Shown: piece by piece, positions 28,352 through 33,421 of the stretch
How the letters are laid out: each line of letters starts with the position of its first letter
Numbering within the stretch: position 1 is the first letter of the stretch
Assembly (NCBI GenBank): GCA_038240915.1
Contig: JBBRGH010000001.1
Span: 1 to 42,602, forward strand
Reading direction: 5' to 3'
From: Gemmatimonadales bacterium
GTDB taxonomy: Bacteria > Gemmatimonadota > Gemmatimonadetes > Gemmatimonadales > GWC2-71-9
DNA length: 42,602 nt
The notes under the pieces: generated by a model
Seen by the model: only the letters and a program-made list of their open reading frames with translations
Databases searched by the model: none
Told to the model about the DNA's origin: nothing
Made by a program: the position numbers and the translations under genes

Positions 28352-28360
28352 GGCCGGGGC
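28352..28360. repeat. Target-site duplication, left copy (GGCCGGGGC)
   Basis: A 9-bp sequence immediately outside the left inverted repeat. It is identical to 33228-33236, immediately outside the right inverted repeat. Confidence 0.75.
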
Positions 28361-28380
28361 GGTAGTGTCCGGTTATGACT
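28361..28380. repeat. Left terminal inverted repeat GGTAGTGTCCGGTTATGACT
   Basis: Perfect 20/20 reverse complement of 33208-33227. It begins GG-nnn-TG, as IS1-family ends do. Confidence 0.85.
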
Positions 28381-28399
28381 GTAACGGATTTCCGGGGGC

Positions 28400-30055
28400 C
28401 TAGTCGGCGGGGGCGTCCTTGTCGAACAGGCCCCGGATCGGCTCCGCTACCTTCTTGGCCTTGGGTGCCTGCTTGTAAGTCCGGTTGACCCCTGACGTCT
28501 GTGGGTAGTCGATCCGTTTCCCCTCTAGCAGCTCGCCCACTGTCAGAAGCTGAATCCGGGGGTGCTTTCCCCATGGTGACTCATACAACCCCGCGCTGGC
28601 CGCTTCCTGCCGCATAGGTTTAGTGGGCTCCTCGAAGCTCAGAAGCACGCCCATTTCGGCCTTCTCCCGCTGCATCACCCCACCGAGCGAATGCACTTGA
28701 TCCCGCCCGACGTGGCCCGCCTTCACTGAGAGGATGATTTGGTGTGTTTTGCCCCCGGCGGTGCCGTCGTGGAAGTAGAGTCGGCCGTCAATGCCCTTGT
28801 CTGCCCCCTTCTTCTGTTCGGCTGGGCGAGCGCCGACAAGCCCCAGCGCCCACCACTGGAATTGGTAGGGATCGGATGCGGCCAGCACCTCGGCGTCCTC
28901 GACCGTCGTGGGTTCACCGACCACCTGGTAGTTCACGTTGGCCCCGTATGTGTCCCGGAGTCTCGTCTTGATGAGGGCGATTGCGAGATGCGTAACGTCA
29001 ATTCCAATCCATCGGCGGCCGAGTTTCTGAGCGGCGGCAACCGTCGTCCCGCATCCGCAGAACGGGTCCAGCACCGTTGCTCCCTCAGCACTGCTCACCT
29101 TGATGATCCGCTCTAGAAGTGCCTCGGGTTTCTGTGTGGGGTAGCCAAGCCGCTCGGCCGCCTGCGAGTTCAGGGGTGGGATTGTATCCCAAATATCTTG
29201 GAGTGCGGCCCCCTTGGCCTCCTCGGCGTAGACCTTCAACCGAGGCATGCCCCCCTTGTTGGCTGGCCAGTAAATCCGCCCCTCCTTCTCCAGGTCGTCG
29301 AGCTTCCCCACCCCGTACTTCCAGTGTCCCCCCTTGGCCGTAATGTCTATTCCGCGCCACGGCTTACCAGATTCGCCGTGTCGCGTTCCGAGGGCATGGA
29401 GCGTGATGGGATAAAACTTTCTCCCGCCGGGCTCTACATAGGTATACCGCTCCGCAATGTATTCCTCATCGCGCTCAAACTGCGCGTTCCAGGTGTAGTC
29501 CTCGGACTTTGAGTAGAACAGGATGGTGTCGTGTAGGGGGCCGTACTTGGATGAAGAGTTGTGCGCACCAGAGCGTTTCCATATCACCTCGCTCCGGAAT
29601 TGCTCGGGTCCGAACACCGCGTCAAGCAACATTTTCAGATAGTGGCTGGCCGTCGGGTCGCAGTGGAGATACAGCGACCCGGACGACTTTAGCACCCGGC
29701 GCAGCTCGACGAGACGGGGGGCCATCATGGCCAAATACGCCAGCATGTCATTGTCGCCAAGGAACGTGCGGAATGCGAGCATTGCCTGCGCGACCTTGCC
29801 GCCAGCTTCCACCGCCTCCTGGTAGGCCGCCGCCGCCGCCTCGTCCCACTCCCAGGTGTCCTCGAATGCTCGAATCTGCGCCGCCGCCCGCGTGCCGTCC
29901 TTCTCAGCGAACAGCACGTTGTAGTTCTGATTTGAGTTGAACGGCGGGTCTAGGTAAACGAGGTCTACCGACTCGTCCGGGACGTGCCGGCGGAGCACGT
30001 CGAGATTGTCGCCGTAGTAGAGCAGGTTGTCTGTAGGGGGCATGTCGGGGAGCAT
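28400..30055 (-). CDS. Beta-class N6-adenine/N4-cytosine DNA methyltransferase fused to a C-terminal Mrr-like PD-(D/E)xK domain
   Basis: Motif IV '[17 protein letters not shown]' precedes motif I '[26 protein letters not shown]' (beta permutation). The C-terminal '[10 protein letters not shown]...IILSVKAG...QVHSLGGVM...[11 protein letters not shown]' resembles the Mrr_cat fold. ATG 30055 was chosen as the start; alternatives are TTG 30079 and ATG 30043. Confidence 0.87.
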
Positions 30056-30082
30056 ACCAAGGCCGCCGCCGCGCCTCAAGCG

Positions 30083-30949
30083 TTAGCGCGACGGCAGGAG
30101 CCGTTGCGGGTCCATCAGGGCCACGATGTCCTTGACGGTCCAAACCTTGTCCGTCAGGCCCGACGCCATAGCCGGGGTCGTCTTGACGCCCTGAGCAGCC
30201 TTGGTGAGCGTCTGGTGGGGACGGCAGTAGTTGTAATACAGGAAGAACAGGCTGGCCGCGTGGGCGTGATTCTCCGCCTTCTTGGAGAAGGCGTTGGTCA
30301 GCCGGGTATAGCGGCGGCTCTGCATGCGAAGGGTGAGGTTCGACCGCTCGACATAAGACGTAGAGACAAGGTCCGGGTCCGGAGTTCCGATCACACGGAT
30401 TTTCTGTGTGCCGGTGCAGACGGGGGGGCTGTACCGCCGCGACGAATCCACCCCACTCTCAAGCTGGCCGTAGCTCTTCACCAACTGCGCATAATCCACT
30501 TCATCGAAGCGGAAGGCGGCCCGGACGGCGGTGAGGCACATGCCGTGGCCGTCCGTCGTCAACTGAATCCGGCGGGTCACCCGCGCCCGCAAGTCCTGCA
30601 TAAACTCGATGGCGTTCTCTTGGGTCCGCCCGCCCACCAGCCACGTCATGATGAGCTTGGACTCTGCATCCAGGGCCGTAAAGGTCCAAATGTCGCCATC
30701 ACCCGGACGGGTGGCCCGCCGCTGCTTGGCTCCCACGAAGGCCCAAATCTCGTCCGCCTCGACCACCGCCGTCCTGAGGTTCCGGTGGACCGCATCCTGA
30801 TAGGCTGACGCAAACTCCCCCGCCTCGACCATCAGCTTCATGACCGTCTCTTTGTTCGCCCCGGTCATGCGGGCGGTCGCGCGGATGCTGTTGCCCTCGC
30901 AGAGGGCAGTGATGATGGCGGCGCGACGGTCGGCAGAAAGCTTGTTCAT
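30083..30949 (-). CDS. IS1-family DDE transposase (single-ORF type)
   Basis: N-terminal HTH 'NSIRATARMTGANKETV'. 'EADEIWAFVGAKQRR', 'LTTDGHGMC' and 'YVERSNLTLRMQSRRYTRLTNAFSKKAENH' align with E. coli IS1 InsB 'EMDEQWGYVGAKSRQ', 'WMTDGWPLY' and '[30 protein letters not shown]'. ATG 30949 (the ORF track begins at TTG 30970). Confidence 0.87.
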   Translation of the reverse strand: MNKLSADRRAAIITALCEGNSIRATARMTGANKETVMKLMVEAGEFASAYQDAVHRNLRTAVVEADEIWAFVGAKQRRATRPGDGDIWTFTALDAESKLIMTWLVGGRTQENAIEFMQDLRARVTRRIQLTTDGHGMCLTAVRAAFRFDEVDYAQLVKSYGQLESGVDSSRRYSPPVCTGTQKIRVIGTPDPDLVSTSYVERSNLTLRMQSRRYTRLTNAFSKKAENHAHAASLFFLYYNYCRPHQTLTKAAQGVKTTPAMASGLTDKVWTVKDIVALMDPQRLLPSR

Positions 30950-30998
30950 TGTAACGGTCAATATAGCCAATTGCTAAGCATTGGTCAAGGGAGGATTG

Positions 30999-31023
30999 AC
31001 CTAAAAGGTAGCATGGTGCTACC
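30999..31023. promoter_or_regulatory. Candidate MqsA operator palindromes in the TAC promoter
   Basis: ACCT-AAA-AGGT at 30999-31009 overlaps a second palindrome, GGTAGCA-TGG-TGCTACC, at 31007-31023. A TTGACC -35-like hexamer lies at 30996-31001. The sites are 10-35 nt upstream of ATG 31033. Confidence 0.5.
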
Positions 31024-31032
31024 ATTCAGGGC

Positions 31033-31362
31033 ATGCTTCCTAGCATGCCAACCGGGCTAACCGACGAACAGGTGGTGGATTTGGTCCGGACAGCTGCTTG
31101 CAGCGCCGGGTTTTACGTCCATCGCCGGTGCCAGGACTCGGTCCAGGATCACGGCTACGATCTGGCGAGGGTACGGGGGTTGCTGGCGGGCTGCGACGTG
31201 TCGGAACTGGTGAAACATGAGCCCGATGACCAGGGGCGACCGTACTACATCGTGGAGTTCGACATTCTGGACTATGACCAATCGTTCCCGTTCTACATCA
31301 AGGTTTCTCTAGTGATACCCGAGTTGAGAGATGGCTACTTACTCTCATTCAAGCGGAAGTGA
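31033..31362 (+). CDS. mqsR: MqsR-family type II toxin (mRNA interferase)
   Basis: The C-terminus 'FYIKVSLVIPELRDGYLLSFKRK' parallels E. coli MqsR 'VYLKITVIHDVLIVSFKEK'. The N-terminal 'DEQVVDLVRTAA' parallels 'LSQVKKLVNAGQ'. About 105-109 aa (ATG 31033 or 31045). Confidence 0.8.
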   Translation: MLPSMPTGLTDEQVVDLVRTAACSAGFYVHRRCQDSVQDHGYDLARVRGLLAGCDVSELVKHEPDDQGRPYYIVEFDILDYDQSFPFYIKVSLVIPELRDGYLLSFKRK

Positions 31363-31363
31363 C

Positions 31364-31960
31364 ATGAGCCCATCTGAGCCCCTCATCCAGTGCCCGGCAT
31401 GCAGAAGCACCGAGCTTGAAATCGAGCGCGAGGAAAAGTTTGCTCGGAGTGAGCGCGGAAAGTCTGTGGCGTACTGGCAGGAGTTTCACCGTTGCCGAGG
31501 GTGCCAAGAGGAGTTTCTAACTCCGGCGCAGTCGGATGCGAGTAGCCGGGGTCATGCATCGGCCCTCAGGAAAGCCGAGCGGCTGGTCACGCCCGATGAA
31601 ATTGTCGAAGCTCGCAACCGGCTTGGCATGACCCAGGATGATTTTGAGATCGCGCTCGGGGTCGGCAGAAAGACCGTCGTCCGGTGGGAGCGTGGCACGG
31701 TGGTGCCGAGCCGAGCCGCCAACGGACTTCTTTGGTTTGCCGTTCACTACCCGAGCGTGTTTAAGAAGTATGCGCGAGCGAACGCCCCGGAGTCTGTGCG
31801 TGCAACCGCGGAAGCCCAATTGGTCGCCAGTATCAGCTCTCCCCCCGAGGGCCGCGGAATGGCCAAGGTTACCCGCTGGTCGCCTCCGAGCGCAGAGCGA
31901 ACGACCACGGACGCTGGCCCAGAAATCGGGGGCGACGTGCTTGCCGGGAGTTCTGTGTGA
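31364..31960 (+). CDS. mqsA: MqsA-family antitoxin (Zn-ribbon plus XRE HTH) with extended C-terminal tail
   Basis: Starts 1 nt after the toxin stop. 'CPACRS...CRGCQEEF' forms a CxxC/CxxC zinc ribbon. HTH 'ARNRLGMTQDDFEIALGVGRKTVVRWERG'. A further 70 aa or so follow beyond the length of E. coli MqsA. Confidence 0.85.
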   Translation: MSPSEPLIQCPACRSTELEIEREEKFARSERGKSVAYWQEFHRCRGCQEEFLTPAQSDASSRGHASALRKAERLVTPDEIVEARNRLGMTQDDFEIALGVGRKTVVRWERGTVVPSRAANGLLWFAVHYPSVFKKYARANAPESVRATAEAQLVASISSPPEGRGMAKVTRWSPPSAERTTTDAGPEIGGDVLAGSSV

Positions 31961-32430
31961 CGACGCCCGCCCTCCCTCGCGTCGAGATGACCTTAGCGCA
32001 CATCTTCTTGGACCACGCTGAGTTTCGGCATCGGAGCGAGCCGCTAGACTTCGACCCGAGCGCCGAGAGGAAGCCGTCACCGCCAGCAGCTGTGACGGTC
32101 AACTTGCGGCTGGCCGAGGACAAGAAGAGTGTCGCGGTGAGGCTCCAAGTAGAGAGCGAAAACCCGGACAATCCATATATCTACTCGGTCGCTTACGTTG
32201 CGCTCTTTACCGTGCAAACGGACGCCGATCTCGACGCCGAGGAATCCAAGCCGATACGGGATAGGATGATGGCAACCGGGGCAACGGTGGCGATGCCGTT
32301 TGCACGCGAGTTGGTGGGCAACCTGACCGGCAGATCGCGGCTCGGCCCGCAGTGGTTGAATCCTATCAACTTCGCCACGCATCTACTGAATCCTGAAAGT
32401 CAGAACAAGCTAGTTCCGCCCACAATCTAG
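31957..32430 (+). CDS. SecB-like chaperone (TAC chaperone)
   Basis: GTGA overlap with the antitoxin. 'VALFTVQTD...ATGATVAMPFARELVGNLTGRSRLGPQWLNPINF' parallels SecB '[35 protein letters not shown]' and M. tuberculosis Rv1957 'RFALYPYIREYVYDLTGRLALPPLTL'. An alternative ATG lies at 31987. Confidence 0.8.
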   Translation: MTTPALPRVEMTLAHIFLDHAEFRHRSEPLDFDPSAERKPSPPAAVTVNLRLAEDKKSVAVRLQVESENPDNPYIYSVAYVALFTVQTDADLDAEESKPIRDRMMATGATVAMPFARELVGNLTGRSRLGPQWLNPINFATHLLNPESQNKLVPPTI

Positions 32431-32449
32431 GAGCCGAGGGCCTGCCTCC

Positions 32450-32647
32450 ATGCCTGACTACTACAACTCAGCCTTTCACGCTCACGGCGCAGCGGTCCAC
32501 CACGTCGAGACGGAATGCCCTGACGGCTTGCGGGTTCCCGGCCCTGAGCGGGTATCCGGAACTGGCAACCTTCCGATGTGCAATTGGTGTCGGGATGAAT
32601 CGAACCGGCGGCGGAGGCCCCCGCGCCGGTACTACTCTGGCGGGTAG
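32450..32647 (+). CDS. Small Cys-containing hypothetical protein
   Basis: 65-aa ORF. 'HHVETECPDG...VSGTGNLPMCNWC' resembles a small conserved protein type I recall (YH..C..G....SGTGG..LC..C). No clear RBS. Confidence 0.4.
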   Translation: MPDYYNSAFHAHGAAVHHVETECPDGLRVPGPERVSGTGNLPMCNWCRDESNRRRRPPRRYYSGG

Positions 32648-33012
32648 AAGGTCATCTCCCAGGTCGGGCCGTCGGGCTCACCGAGAGTCATCAGCCACAC
32701 GCGGCGGAGGGCGTTGACCGGGAGGCCCGCATCGAGCGCCACAGCCAGCGCACGAAATCCATCGGCGAAAGGCCCGTGGAAGCGAACGGTGGGCTCGGGG
32801 AAGGCATGCCCCGGCCCACCTTCGCAACTTTCATAGGTTTCCACCCCGCAGGCCCGGAGCGCATGCACGATATCGGCTATGCCGATATCGAGGCTACCGA
32901 GCCCCCGGCTACTCTCCAGTGGCCTTCCCGTTCGTCCAGCGGCCTTTGGCGGCCTTTCTTGCGATAGCCGTCCTATCGGCCGGGCTGAGCCTGTCTTTGC
33001 GGTTTCGGCCAC
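32632..33012 (-). CDS. Hypothetical protein
   Basis: Open frame of 126 aa with no recognisable family. The upstream third overlaps the next gene, so the true start is probably internal (for example the GTG of 'VHALRAC'). Confidence 0.35.
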   Translation of the reverse strand: MAETAKTGSARPIGRLSQERPPKAAGRTGRPLESSRGLGSLDIGIADIVHALRACGVETYESCEGGPGHAFPEPTVRFHGPFADGFRALAVALDAGLPVNALRRVWLMTLGEPDGPTWEMTFYPPE

Positions 33013-33157
33013 CCTTCGATCCTCTTGAGACGGCGTCTGGATTATTGTCGCGCTCCCCAGGTGGCAGCGTCTTAGGGGCCTGTCTAGTCGCCTCTAACAT
33101 CGTCCTGAAGGCGATTTCGGCCACGTCGGGCCGGAGCTTGGTCGGTTTCTTTGGCAT
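32909..33157 (-). CDS. Small basic hypothetical protein with KGG / 'ARKAAKGRW' C-terminal motif
   Basis: 82-aa ORF. 'RGSKGGRNRKDRLSPADRTAIARKAAKGRW' is a motif commonly seen at the C-terminus of small mobile-element proteins. This is recollection, not verified. Confidence 0.5.
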   Translation of the reverse strand: MPKKPTKLRPDVAEIAFRTMLEATRQAPKTLPPGERDNNPDAVSRGSKGGRNRKDRLSPADRTAIARKAAKGRWTNGKATGE

Positions 33158-33207
33158 AGCTGGAATCTAGGGACCGGTCCCGGAATCACCAATCGGCTTG
33201 TGTACCA

Positions 33208-33227
33208 AGTCATAACCGGACACTACC
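33208..33227. repeat. Right terminal inverted repeat AGTCATAACCGGACACTACC
   Basis: Perfect reverse complement of 28361-28380. Confidence 0.85.
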
Positions 33228-33236
33228 GGCCGGGGC
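33228..33236. repeat. Target-site duplication, right copy (GGCCGGGGC)
   Basis: Identical to 28352-28360 and directly abutting the right inverted repeat. Confidence 0.75.
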
Positions 33237-33412: not shown

Positions 33413-33421
33413 TTTTCCACA
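33413..33421 (+). promoter_or_regulatory. DnaA-box-like 9-mer TTTTCCACA in the dnaA promoter region
   Basis: One mismatch to TTATCCACA. It immediately follows a TTGAC -35-like element (33408-33412), 56 nt upstream of the dnaA ATG. Confidence 0.4.

What the first reader, a model, noticed from the sequence alone, without database searches (positions are those of the whole stretch)
31033..32430. Tripartite toxin-antitoxin-chaperone (TAC) module of the MqsR/MqsA type with a SecB-like chaperone, carried on a transposon
Three tightly packed genes follow one another with a 1-nt gap and then a GTGA overlap:
- An MqsR-like toxin with the C-terminal '...YIKVSLV...LLSFKRK' signature.
- An MqsA-like antitoxin with a CxxC/CxxC zinc ribbon and an XRE HTH.
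- A protein whose C-terminal half aligns with SecB and with the M. tuberculosis TAC chaperone Rv1957.

The antitoxin is about 198 aa, against 131 aa in E. coli MqsA. It carries a roughly 70-aa Ser/Pro/Ala-rich C-terminal tail, where TAC antitoxins carry their chaperone-addiction segment.

TAC systems are best known from the HigBA1-Rv1957 locus, and MqsRA-type TACs have to my recollection been noted but are little studied. Here the module is cargo of an IS1-family element beside oriC, alongside a methyltransferase. That points to an addiction or defence role for the element. This is the most system-like accessory content in the window. I do not claim it is an entirely new class.
Basis: partly seen in the sequence, partly recalled or inferred. 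Interest (0 to 1): 0.8.

Follow-up and report, generated by a model that had tools for sequence, protein, structure and literature searches.

The report
MqsRA-type toxin-antitoxin-chaperone module on transposon
Three overlapping genes encode an MqsR-like RNase toxin, an MqsA-like antitoxin with a long floppy tail and a SecB-like chaperone, a kind of system already shown experimentally in Vibrio and E. coli, here as cargo of a 4.9-kb IS1-family transposon.

Summary
Three co-directional genes sit at 31033-32430, with a 1-nt gap and then a GTGA overlap.

- **Antitoxin:** passes the curated MqsA cut-offs. It carries a 61-aa C-terminal tail that E. coli MqsA lacks and that is predicted disordered.
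- **Chaperone:** passes the Pfam SecB cut-off. A six-sequence profile of it and its syntenic homologues matches solved SecB structures (E 1.7e-9).
- **Toxin:** hits no family model on its own. Its 43-member family links to MqsR by profile. A pLDDT-96 model matches only E. coli MqsR (TM 0.71-0.76). The aligned positions of both essential catalytic residues (Lys56, Tyr81) are kept.

The T-A-C order recurs in 11 other loci. Those whose organism is named are Gemmatimonadota MAGs. Most share a 17-bp palindrome over the -10 box.

The module lies inside a 4867-bp IS1-family transposon, which has 20-bp perfect inverted repeats and a 9-bp target duplication. The transposon also carries a DNA methyltransferase and is inserted between rpmH and dnaA.

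MqsRA-type TACs are already experimentally characterised (V. cholerae RC385; E. coli C496_10, anti-T2 defence). This is therefore a new, divergent member of a known kind.

The transposon context is the freshest part. Related IS1 elements have a variable cargo slot at the same position. An IS1595-type transposon carries the same methyltransferase-transposase-TAC order.

The parts
28352..28360 (.). Left copy of the 9-bp target-site duplication GGCCGGGGC
   Evidence: Read directly from the sequence. It is identical to 33228-33236.
28361..28380 (+). Left terminal inverted repeat GGTAGTGTCCGGTTATGACT of the 4867-bp IS1-family transposon
   Evidence: 2 exact copies, 0 expected by chance. The GGTAGTG terminus is shared with IS1-family elements L020 and L021.
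28400..30055 (-). Passenger DNA methyltransferase (551 aa): N6_N4_Mtase domain plus a C-terminal Mrr_cat / NA-iREase1-like domain
   Evidence: Pfam N6_N4_Mtase 1.1e-44, Mrr_cat 28.5 bits, NA-iREase1 31.6 bits. PADLOC MTase_II 3e-76. The start matches the NCBI protein. It is 59% identical to the methyltransferase in transposon L002.
30083..30949 (-). IS1-family transposase (288 aa, single ORF with an N-terminal HTH)
   Evidence: Pfam DDE_Tnp_IS1 35.8 bits, above its cut-off of 24.1. It is 47-50% identical over its full length to plasmid genes annotated 'IS1 family transposase'. The start matches the NCBI protein.
30960..30988 (-). Promoter-like site for the transposase (TTGACC-17-TATATT)
   Evidence: Consensus scan only. 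Its -35 box forms a palindrome with the -35 box of the TAC promoter (GGTCAAgggaggaTTGACC, 30983-31001).
30996..31025 (+). Promoter-like site for the TAC operon (TTGACC-18-TACCAT, with an upstream TG)
   Evidence: Consensus scan. The -10 box ends 7 nt before ATG 31033, which suggests a leaderless mRNA (inference).
30999..31009 (.). ACCT-AAA-AGGT, which matches the canonical MqsA box ACCT(N)3AGGT
   Evidence: It is the only occurrence in the window, with 0.25 expected. It is not found upstream of the toxin gene in any other fetched TAC locus. The motif definition comes from PMC5422877.
31007..31023 (.). Putative antitoxin operator: the 17-bp palindrome GGTAGCA-TGG-TGCTACC, overlapping the -10 box
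   Evidence: It is unique in the window, with 0.02 expected. The same palindrome lies upstream of the toxin gene in L001, L002, L003/4, L005, L006, L011 and L019.
31033..31362 (+). Toxin: a divergent MqsR-family endoribonuclease (109 aa; NCBI aa from ATG 31045)
   Evidence: - The window protein itself has no Pfam hit.
- 13 of 43 family members hit PF15723.
- hhalign against E. coli MqsR gives E 2.4e-5.
- The AlphaFold2 model has pLDDT 95.9. Its top Foldseek hits are MqsR 3hi2 chains B and D, TM 0.71-0.76.
- In all six loci tested, an in-frame start codon lies 17-19 nt from the operator centre, which favours ATG 31033.
31364..31960 (+). Antitoxin: MqsA family (198 aa), with a zinc ribbon and HTH in residues 9-135
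   Evidence: PF15731 34.6 bits and TIGR03830 90.7 bits, both above their cut-offs. PDB MqsA 3gn5 by sequence, E 2e-5, and by fold, E 6e-7.
31775..31957 (+). Antitoxin C-terminal tail (residues 138-198), the candidate chaperone-addiction (ChAD) segment
   Evidence: - It is absent from E. coli MqsA.
- Tails of 49-67 aa occur in all full-length homologues.
- The AlphaFold2 model shows pLDDT of about 50-70 for a weak helix at 143-157 and below 50 over most of 158-198.
31957..32430 (+). SecB-like TAC chaperone (157 aa, GTG start inside the GTGA overlap)
   Evidence: Pfam SecB 31.8 bits against a cut-off of 26. A 6-sequence profile matches SecB 1fx3 at 1.7e-9 and E. coli SecB at 1.2e-7 over almost the full length. 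It scores far below the NCBIfam housekeeping SecB cut-offs.
32450..32647 (+). Unassigned 65-aa ORF inside the transposon
   Evidence: No family hit. This is a mechanical ORF, and whether it codes is not established.
32632..33012 (-). Unassigned 126-aa ORF inside the transposon
   Evidence: No family hit.
32909..33157 (-). Small basic protein (82 aa) conserved in this IS1 clade, next to the inverted repeat distal to the transposase gene
   Evidence: BLASTP gives 45% and 38% identity to the small ORFs of elements L020 (annotated 'histone H1') and L021 (annotated 'hypothetical protein'), E 1.6e-7 and 1.2e-6.
33208..33227 (-). Right terminal inverted repeat
33228..33236 (.). Right copy of the 9-bp target-site duplication GGCCGGGGC

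Best explanation
This is a tripartite type II toxin-antitoxin-chaperone (TAC) operon of the MqsRA type ('MqsRAC'). It is a passenger of a 4867-bp IS1-family transposon inserted between rpmH and dnaA. The host chromosome is probably Gemmatimonadota.

**Shown here**
- The family and fold of the toxin and antitoxin, and the family of the chaperone.
- The extra, disordered antitoxin tail.
- The operon layout.
- The conserved promoter palindrome.
- The transposon ends.

**Inferred from the characterised homologues**
1. The antitoxin's zinc-ribbon domain binds the toxin and blocks RNA access. The toxin is an MqsR-like, ribosome-independent RNase that uses a Lys/Tyr catalytic pair.
2. The antitoxin's HTH dimer represses the operon at the 17-bp palindrome GGTAGCA-N3-TGCTACC, which overlaps the -10 box.
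3. The 61-aa tail makes the antitoxin prone to aggregation or to protease attack unless the SecB-like tetramer holds it.
4. When the chaperone is titrated away, for example by a phage structural protein or by unfolded clients, the antitoxin is lost. The toxin then cleaves mRNA and growth stops, giving abortive infection or stasis.

My committed view is that the selected role is mainly phage defence carried on a mobile element. Post-loss killing that stabilises the transposon is a secondary benefit.
For: **Antitoxin**
- It passes the MqsA HMM cut-offs.
- E. coli MqsA is the top PDB hit by sequence and by fold.

**Toxin**
- It belongs to a family of 42 representatives in 1.84 billion proteins.
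- 13 of 43 members hit Pfam MqsR_toxin.
- hhalign against E. coli MqsR gives E 2.4e-5. It aligns the window's Lys57, Tyr84 and Lys103 (105-aa numbering) with E. coli Lys56, Tyr81 and Lys96.
- Tyr is 43/43 and Lys 27/43 in the family.
- Lys56 and Tyr81 are the essential catalytic residues of MqsR (PMC9636575).
- The pLDDT-95.9 model matches only MqsR well (TM 0.71-0.76; the next hits are below 0.45).

**Chaperone**
- It passes the Pfam SecB cut-off.
- Its profile matches solved SecB at E 1.7e-9.

**Tail**
- It is present (49-67 aa) in all full-length homologues and absent from E. coli MqsA.
- It is predicted disordered.
- Most tails hold aromatic residues and end in small aliphatic residues. 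This fits what the literature describes for ChADs and ClpX degrons.

**Synteny**
- T-A-C recurs in 11 further loci. In most loci the antitoxin stop and chaperone start overlap by 4 nt.

**Operator**
- The palindrome is conserved in 8 loci, at a fixed distance from the toxin start codon.

**Transposon**
- Inverted repeats and a target duplication are present. Homologous GGTAGTG termini with 8-bp duplications occur in two related IS1-family elements.

**Literature for the mechanism**
- PMC5105189.
- PMC9519451.
- 10.1101/2024.02.24.581848.
Against: - No experiment was run. Toxicity, neutralisation and chaperone dependence are all inferred.
- The window's toxin has no Pfam or NCBIfam hit of its own. 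The residue aligned with E. coli Gln68 is Ile.
No antitoxin-chaperone complex model was possible.
- The window's tail holds only one aromatic residue (Trp172), whereas characterised ChADs use several.
- The operator differs from the canonical MqsA box. The base-contacting Asn97 position is Lys here, so DNA binding at the palindrome is inferred from conservation only.
- Defence versus addiction cannot be separated in silico. No relative was found on phage contigs or plasmids.
Confidence: 0.8

Rival explanations
1. The module's main role is maintenance of the transposon, not phage defence. That role would be addiction or 'stable invasion', possibly with cross-talk to transposase expression. Cells that lose the element, or fail to establish it, would lose the labile antitoxin and be arrested. 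This is what has been proposed for TA pairs embedded in Tn3-family transposition modules.
For: - The TAC lies directly and divergently next to the transposase gene, and their promoter-like sites are back to back.
- A transposase gene directly flanks the TAC in L002, L003/4, L005 and L008 as well. These are IS1595-type transposases.
- Related IS1 elements have other small modules in the same slot.
- The Tn3 precedent is PMC7157771.
Against: - The only tested biological role of an MqsRAC is phage defence (PMC9519451).
- A chromosomal transposon is not lost by segregation the way a plasmid is.
- The operator lies in the TAC promoter, not in the predicted transposase promoter.
- Other homologous TACs lie next to integrases or next to no mobile gene at all.
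Confidence: 0.3
2. The locus is an ordinary two-gene MqsRA pair followed by an unrelated or merely co-transcribed SecB-like gene. The antitoxin would be stable without the chaperone, and the tail would serve another purpose or none.
For: - Chaperone dependence was not tested.
- The window's tail is poor in aromatic residues.
- The tail sequence is weakly conserved across homologues.
Against: - Every antitoxin homologue found by sequence search that could be examined has both the tail and a downstream SecB-like gene. Most of those genes overlap the antitoxin stop by 4 nt.
- The chaperone scores far below the housekeeping SecB cut-offs: 31 against 143 bits.
- The locus sits inside a transposon.
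- ChADs are known to be highly variable in sequence (PMC5105189).
Confidence: 0.08
3. The module is a decayed, non-functional remnant.
For: - The window's toxin fails the Pfam MqsR model.
- The clusters of all three proteins have a single member.
Against: - All three ORFs are intact with coupled starts.
- The aligned positions of catalytic Lys and Tyr, the four zinc-binding Cys and the HTH core are kept.
- The operator is a perfect palindrome.
- A homologue 73-79% identical exists in another sample.
Confidence: 0.04

Closest known systems
MqsRAC / MqsRA-type TAC systems (V. cholerae RC385 Vcho-TAC, Bordes et al. 2016, PMC5105189; E. coli C496_10 mqsRAC, Vassallo et al. 2022, PMC9519451)
   Same: - The three-gene order is the same: MqsR-like toxin, then MqsA-like antitoxin with a C-terminal extension, then a SecB-like chaperone. 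Vcho-MqsA's ChAD spans residues 136-176, and the tail here spans 138-198.
- The expected logic of chaperone-gated antitoxin stability is the same.
   Different: - The toxin belongs to a divergent subfamily that the Pfam MqsR model does not detect for this protein.
- The host lineage is probably Gemmatimonadota rather than Gammaproteobacteria.
- The operator palindrome differs (GTAGCA-N3-TGCTAC).
- The module is carried on IS1 or IS1595 cargo transposons.
- I could not compare sequences directly because the Vcho and C496_10 proteins were not available in the tools.
M. tuberculosis HigBA1-SecB(TA) TAC (Rv1955-Rv1957)
   Same: - It has a SecB-like chaperone. Rv1957 is a weak direct hit, E 0.077.
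- It follows the ChAD principle.
- Its antitoxin has a C-terminal aliphatic ending that serves as a ClpX degron: Val-Ala in HigA1, against Ser-Val here.
   Different: - The toxin and antitoxin families differ (HigB/HigA against MqsR/MqsA).
- The gene context differs.
E. coli MqsR/MqsA two-gene system (PDB 3hi2, 3gn5)
   Same: - The toxin fold matches, and the aligned positions of Lys56 and Tyr81 are kept.
- The antitoxin has the same zinc ribbon plus HTH architecture.
- The toxin gene comes first in both.
   Different: - The E. coli system has no tail and no chaperone.
- Its operator is ACCT(N)3AGGT.
- The Asn97 position is Lys here.
- Sequence identity is only about 15% for the toxin and about 24% for the antitoxin.
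Toxin-antitoxin modules embedded in Tn3-family transposons (Lima-Mendez et al. 2020, PMC7157771)
   Same: A toxin-antitoxin module sits directly beside the transposition genes, inside the transposon ends.
   Different: - The transposon family differs (IS1 or IS1595 against Tn3).
- The module here is three-component.
- There is no resolvase or res site here.

Membership tests
TAC (toxin-antitoxin-chaperone) system | Three co-directional, tightly linked genes: toxin, antitoxin and chaperone | tested here: met
   A 1-nt gap and a 4-nt GTGA overlap. The same order is found in 11 other loci.
TAC (toxin-antitoxin-chaperone) system | The third gene encodes a SecB homologue | tested here: met
   Pfam SecB 31.8 bits against a cut-off of 26. 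The profile matches SecB structures at 1.7e-9 and 1.2e-7 over nearly the full length.
TAC (toxin-antitoxin-chaperone) system | The antitoxin carries a C-terminal extension (ChAD) that two-gene homologues lack | tested here: met
   A 61-aa tail extends beyond the end of E. coli MqsA. Tails of 49-67 aa occur in all full-length homologues. The tail is predicted disordered.
TAC (toxin-antitoxin-chaperone) system | The antitoxin depends on the chaperone for stability and for neutralising the toxin | not testable with these tools
   This needs co-expression assays or at least a complex model.
MqsR toxin family (PF15723) | Match to the family HMM | tested here: not met
   The window protein gives no hit at E<=1. 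However, 13 of 43 members of its family do hit, the best at 7.6e-7. Profile against E. coli MqsR gives E 2.4e-5 with 75% probability.
MqsR toxin family (PF15723) | MqsR fold | tested here: met
   The model has pLDDT 95.9. Foldseek top hits are 3hi2 chains B and D, probability 1.0, TM 0.71-0.76, with all other hits below 0.45.
MqsR toxin family (PF15723) | Catalytic Lys56 and Tyr81 (PMC9636575) | tested here: met
   The aligned residues are Lys57 and Tyr84 in 105-aa numbering. Tyr is invariant in the family and Lys is 27/43.
MqsR toxin family (PF15723) | Ribosome-independent cleavage at GC(U/A) | not testable with these tools
   This is biochemical.
MqsA antitoxin family (PF15731 / TIGR03830) | HMM match above the curated cut-offs, a four-Cys zinc ribbon and a C-terminal HTH | tested here: met
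MqsA antitoxin family (PF15731 / TIGR03830) | DNA-contact residues Asn97 and Arg101, and the operator ACCT(N)3AGGT | tested here: inconclusive
   The Arg101 position is kept (Arg107) and the Asn97 position is Lys103. One canonical box lies in the promoter, but it is not found upstream of the toxin gene in the other loci. The conserved palindrome is a different one.
IS1 family transposon | Transposase of the IS1 type | tested here: met
   Pfam DDE_Tnp_IS1 is above its cut-off. The protein is 47-50% identical to annotated IS1-family transposases. It scores below the NCBIfam IS1 cut-off, 61.5 against 100 bits.
IS1 family transposon | Terminal inverted repeats and an 8-9-bp target-site duplication enclosing the genes | tested here: met
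   20-nt perfect inverted repeats plus a 9-bp duplication. Relatives L020 and L021 share the GGTAGTG termini and have 8-bp duplications.
Housekeeping export chaperone SecB | Score above the NCBIfam SecB equivalog cut-offs | tested here: not met
   The best score is 31.1 bits against a cut-off of 143. The gene also lies inside a transposon.

The most novel reading that the evidence does not exclude
The TAC may be more than incidental cargo. It may occupy a dedicated, exchangeable slot divergent from the transposase gene in a class of cargo-carrying IS1 and IS1595 transposons.

- The antitoxin operator shares a back-to-back promoter region with the transposase gene.
- The toxin-antitoxin-chaperone state could therefore be coupled to transposase expression or to establishment of the element.
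- The methyltransferase (with its Mrr-like domain) and the TAC would travel together as a unit that has been re-mounted on unrelated transposases.
Probability: 0.15. Interest if true: 0.6.

Novelty: new member of a known kind. Interest (0 to 1): 0.38.

Why it matters
The finding extends the experimentally defined MqsRAC type of chaperone-gated toxin-antitoxin system in three ways:
- to a little-studied phylum;
- to a toxin subfamily that standard models miss;
- to carriage on small cargo transposons, not only prophages and superintegrons.

It also gives concrete handles for experiments: a defined operator, a probably leaderless promoter, a 61-aa tail to delete and intact transposon ends.

The recurring transposase-TAC adjacency is a modest but testable lead on how insertion sequences spread defence or addiction modules. 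So is the same methyltransferase-transposase-TAC order on two unrelated transposase backbones.

None of this changes the understanding of how TACs work.

Tried and rejected
- **Word-indexed homologue searches.** They found almost nothing for the toxin (2 hits) and the chaperone (itself only). Homologues had to be recovered through a full HMMER scan and through synteny around antitoxin hits.
- **PADLOC.** It gave no toxin hit. This is uninformative, because E. coli MqsR itself hits nothing in that library.
- **Chaperone structure prediction.** No SecB fold model and no antitoxin-chaperone complex model exist.
- **Plasmid and viral collections.** There are no relatives of the toxin or chaperone on plasmids and no TAC relatives on viral contigs.
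- **Metagenome scan with the chaperone profile.** It added only one close locus.
- **Canonical MqsA box as the operator.** I set this aside as the main operator because it is not found upstream of the toxin gene in the other loci.
- **Target duplication in L002.** I looked for one around the 46-nt inverted repeats and found none.
- **Housekeeping SecB reading.** I rejected it: the score is far below the cut-offs, the gene is inside a transposon, and its start is coupled to the antitoxin stop.
- **L007 and L010 (Longimicrobiaceae).** These hold short, solitary MqsA-like genes without a toxin or chaperone and were not counted as TACs.
Full report

Yes. The ORF list and the sequence show three co-directional genes:
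- Toxin (T): 31033-31362, 109 aa.
- Antitoxin (A): 31364-31960, 198 aa. It starts one base after the toxin's TGA.
- Chaperone (C): 31957-32430, 157 aa. Its GTG start overlaps the antitoxin's TGA as GTGA.

NCBI's own gene calls use slightly different starts: toxin from ATG 31045 (105 aa) and antitoxin from ATG 31331 (209 aa).

**2. Antitoxin**

- It scores above the curated cut-offs of Pfam MqsA_antitoxin (34.6 against 30 bits) and NCBIfam TIGR03830 (90.7 against 61.8 bits) over residues 9-135.
- Its best solved relative is E. coli MqsA, by sequence (3gn5, E 2e-5) and by fold (Foldseek E 6e-7 over all 132 residues of the target).
- The four zinc-ribbon cysteines and the HTH core are invariant among 13 homologues.
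- Aligned with E. coli MqsA, the protein continues for 61 residues (138-198) past the end of the E. coli protein.
- All full-length homologues are 189-213 aa and have tails of 49-67 aa.
- The AlphaFold2 model is confident for residues 1-140 (pLDDT above 90). It has a weak helix at 143-157 and pLDDT below 50 over most of 158-198.
- The tails are poorly conserved in sequence. They share a hydrophobic stretch (AQLVASI here), usually one or more aromatic residues (Trp172 here) and mostly small aliphatic C-termini.
- These features fit published descriptions of chaperone-addiction segments and ClpX degrons (PMC5105189; PMC8165232; 10.1101/2024.02.24.581848). They prove nothing on their own.

**3. 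Chaperone**

- As a single sequence it passes Pfam SecB (31.8 against 26 bits, residues 28-141).
- It weakly hits H. influenzae SecB and M. tuberculosis Rv1957 in the PDB.
- A profile of it and five syntenic homologues matches SecB structures over nearly the full length: 1fx3 at E 1.7e-9 and E. coli SecB at 1.2e-7.
- It scores far below every NCBIfam housekeeping SecB cut-off, 31 against 143 bits at best. It is therefore a SecB homologue but not the export chaperone.

**4. Toxin**

This was the least secure part. The protein hits no Pfam, NCBIfam or PDB sequence. Four lines of evidence now place it in the MqsR family:
- A full HMMER scan of 1.84 billion representatives found a small family of 42 representatives. 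Thirteen of the 43 aligned members hit Pfam MqsR_toxin, the best at 7.6e-7.
- A profile-sequence comparison with E. coli MqsR gives E 2.4e-5 over 82 columns. It aligns Lys57, Tyr84, Lys86 and Lys103 (105-aa numbering) with E. coli Lys56, Tyr81, Lys83 and Lys96.
- Lys56 and Tyr81 are the two residues strictly required for MqsR catalysis (PMC9636575). In the family Tyr84 and Lys86 are invariant, and Lys57 is present in 27 of 43 members, including the window's protein.
- The AlphaFold2 model (pLDDT 95.9) has E. coli MqsR (3hi2 chains B and D) as its only good structural match: probability 1.0 and TM 0.71-0.76. All other hits have TM below 0.45.

The toxin is a divergent MqsR. It is a member by fold and active site, but not by the Pfam model threshold.

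**5. Conservation of the system**

- Looking up the contigs of antitoxin homologues, and scanning genome collections, gave 11 further loci with the same T-A-C order.
- These loci are L001, L002, L003/L004, L005, L006, L008, L011, L018, L019 and two JGI contigs without DNA. In two of the eleven the third gene is cut off by the end of the contig.
- In most of them the antitoxin stop and chaperone start overlap by 4 nt.
- The named genomes among them are all Gemmatimonadota MAGs. That is my only basis for the likely host phylum.
- No relatives were found on plasmids or viral contigs.

**6. Regulation (partly shown, partly inferred)**

- A perfect 17-bp palindrome, GGTAGCA-TGG-TGCTACC (31007-31023), is unique in the window, with 0.02 expected.
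- The same palindrome lies just upstream of the toxin gene in seven other loci. It is degenerate in L008 and absent in L018.
- It overlaps the -10 box of a promoter-like site, TTGACC-18-TACCAT.
- In all six loci tested, an in-frame toxin start codon lies 17-19 nt from the palindrome centre. That last point is inference.
- The canonical MqsA box ACCT(N)3AGGT (PMC5422877) occurs once in the window, at 30999-31009 inside this promoter. It is not found upstream of the toxin gene in the other loci.
- The Asn97 base-contact position is Lys in this family. I therefore regard the GTAGCA palindrome as the likely operator.
- A transposase promoter-like site faces the other way. The two -35 hexamers form the palindrome GGTCAAgggaggaTTGACC.

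**7. The transposon**

- Perfect 20-nt inverted repeats GGTAGTGTCCGGTTATGACT lie at 28361-28380 and 33208-33227, with none expected by chance.
- They are flanked by the 9-bp direct repeat GGCCGGGGC. This defines a 4867-bp element.
- The element carries these parts:
  - a DNA methyltransferase with an Mrr-like C-terminal domain;
  - the transposase;
  - the TAC;
  - two unassigned ORFs;
  - a small basic protein.
- The transposase passes Pfam DDE_Tnp_IS1. It is 47-50% identical to plasmid genes annotated as IS1-family transposases.
- Two of those plasmid elements have the same GGTAGTG termini, 8-bp target duplications and a homologue of the small basic protein:
  - Mesorhizobium loti, 3370 bp;
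  - Acidiphilium multivorum, 2634 bp.
- Both hold other small gene modules in the position divergent from the transposase gene. The TAC is therefore cargo in a recurrent slot of this IS1 clade.
- The element's G+C content (0.58-0.64) is below that of its flanks (0.66-0.75).
- It is inserted between rpmH and dnaA, 240 bp upstream of dnaA. Only one consensus DnaA box was found, so 'beside oriC' is plausible but not shown.

**8. An unexpected parallel**

Locus L002 is a second transposon. It has 46-nt inverted repeats and an IS1595-type transposase with no detectable similarity to the window's. It nevertheless has the same order: methyltransferase, transposase, T-A-C, small ORF. Its methyltransferase is 59% identical to the window's. 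IS1595-type transposase genes also directly flank the TAC in L003/4, L005 and L008. This family of TACs is therefore habitually carried next to transposases.

**9. Mechanism**

I take the mechanism by homology to characterised systems.
- The V. cholerae RC385 MqsRA-TAC needs its chaperone. TAC ChADs are transferable. Vcho-MqsA's ChAD spans residues 136-176 (PMC5105189).
- E. coli C496_10 mqsRAC protects against phage T2 (PMC9519451).
- In HigBAC, a phage tail protein competes with the ChAD for the chaperone (10.1101/2024.02.24.581848).

From these I infer the following steps:
1. The chaperone keeps the tailed antitoxin soluble and protected.
2. The antitoxin blocks the RNase and represses the operon.
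3. Loss of free chaperone releases the toxin.

None of these steps was tested here.

**10. Verdict**

The class is already known and experimentally validated, so this is a new and divergent member rather than a new kind. The added value lies in three things:
- the toxin subfamily that standard models miss;
- the conserved operator;
- the well-defined transposon context.

Noticed in passing
L002:747-5581, compared with window 28361-33227: A second transposon carries the same gene order: methyltransferase, transposase, toxin, antitoxin, chaperone, small ORF. It has 46-nt inverted repeats and an IS1595-type transposase with no detectable similarity to the window's IS1-type one. Its methyltransferase is 59% identical to the window's. 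So the same cargo order is mounted on two different transposase backbones.
   Followed up: partly
L003:3-308, L005:3-230, L008:1146-2285: IS1595-type transposase genes lie directly next to homologous TAC operons in three more independent loci. They are divergent in L003 and L008. Tyrosine integrases flank two others (L001, L018).
   Followed up: partly
L020:1796-5165 and L021:2267-4900 (plasmids of Mesorhizobium loti and Acidiphilium multivorum): Related IS1-family elements share the GGTAGTG termini, 8-bp target duplications and a small basic protein. This protein is annotated 'histone H1' in L020 and 'hypothetical protein' in L021. Both hold other modules in the slot divergent from the transposase gene. 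The M. loti module is an HTH protein containing an HExxH motif plus a partner gene. The Acidiphilium module is a 318-aa hypothetical protein plus a partner gene. This suggests an exchangeable cargo slot.
   Followed up: partly
window 28400-30055 (-): The passenger methyltransferase is fused to a C-terminal Mrr_cat / NA-iREase1-like domain. The usual acidic residue before the Lys appears to be Ser (ILSVKAG; AIISVKAG in L002). The nuclease domain may therefore be inactive. No separate restriction enzyme was recognised in the element.
   Followed up: no
window 30983-31001: The palindrome GGTCAAgggaggaTTGACC is formed by the two -35-like hexamers of the divergent transposase and TAC promoter-like sites. 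Both predicted transcripts would have very short leaders or none.
   Followed up: partly
window 31201-31215 (toxin residues 57-61 in 105-aa numbering): The toxin subfamily has a conserved K-H-E-P-D motif around the catalytic Lys (His 23/43, Glu 33/43, Asp 36/43). E. coli MqsR lacks it. A His/Glu pair beside the Lys might alter the catalytic mechanism.
   Followed up: no
window 33413-33421: This is the only consensus DnaA box (TTTTCCACA) in the 42.6-kb window. It lies about 55 nt upstream of dnaA and about 185 nt from the transposon's right end. The transposon has split the rpmH-dnaA intergenic region.
   Followed up: partly
L007:2641-3096 and L010:5893-6333: Longimicrobiaceae MAGs carry a short (146-151 aa) solitary MqsA-like gene downstream of pth. 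No recognisable toxin or chaperone is nearby.
   Followed up: no
L021:4883-5721: A RES-domain toxin and an Xre (MbcA/ParS) antitoxin pair lies immediately outside the right end of the Acidiphilium IS1-family element.
   Followed up: no
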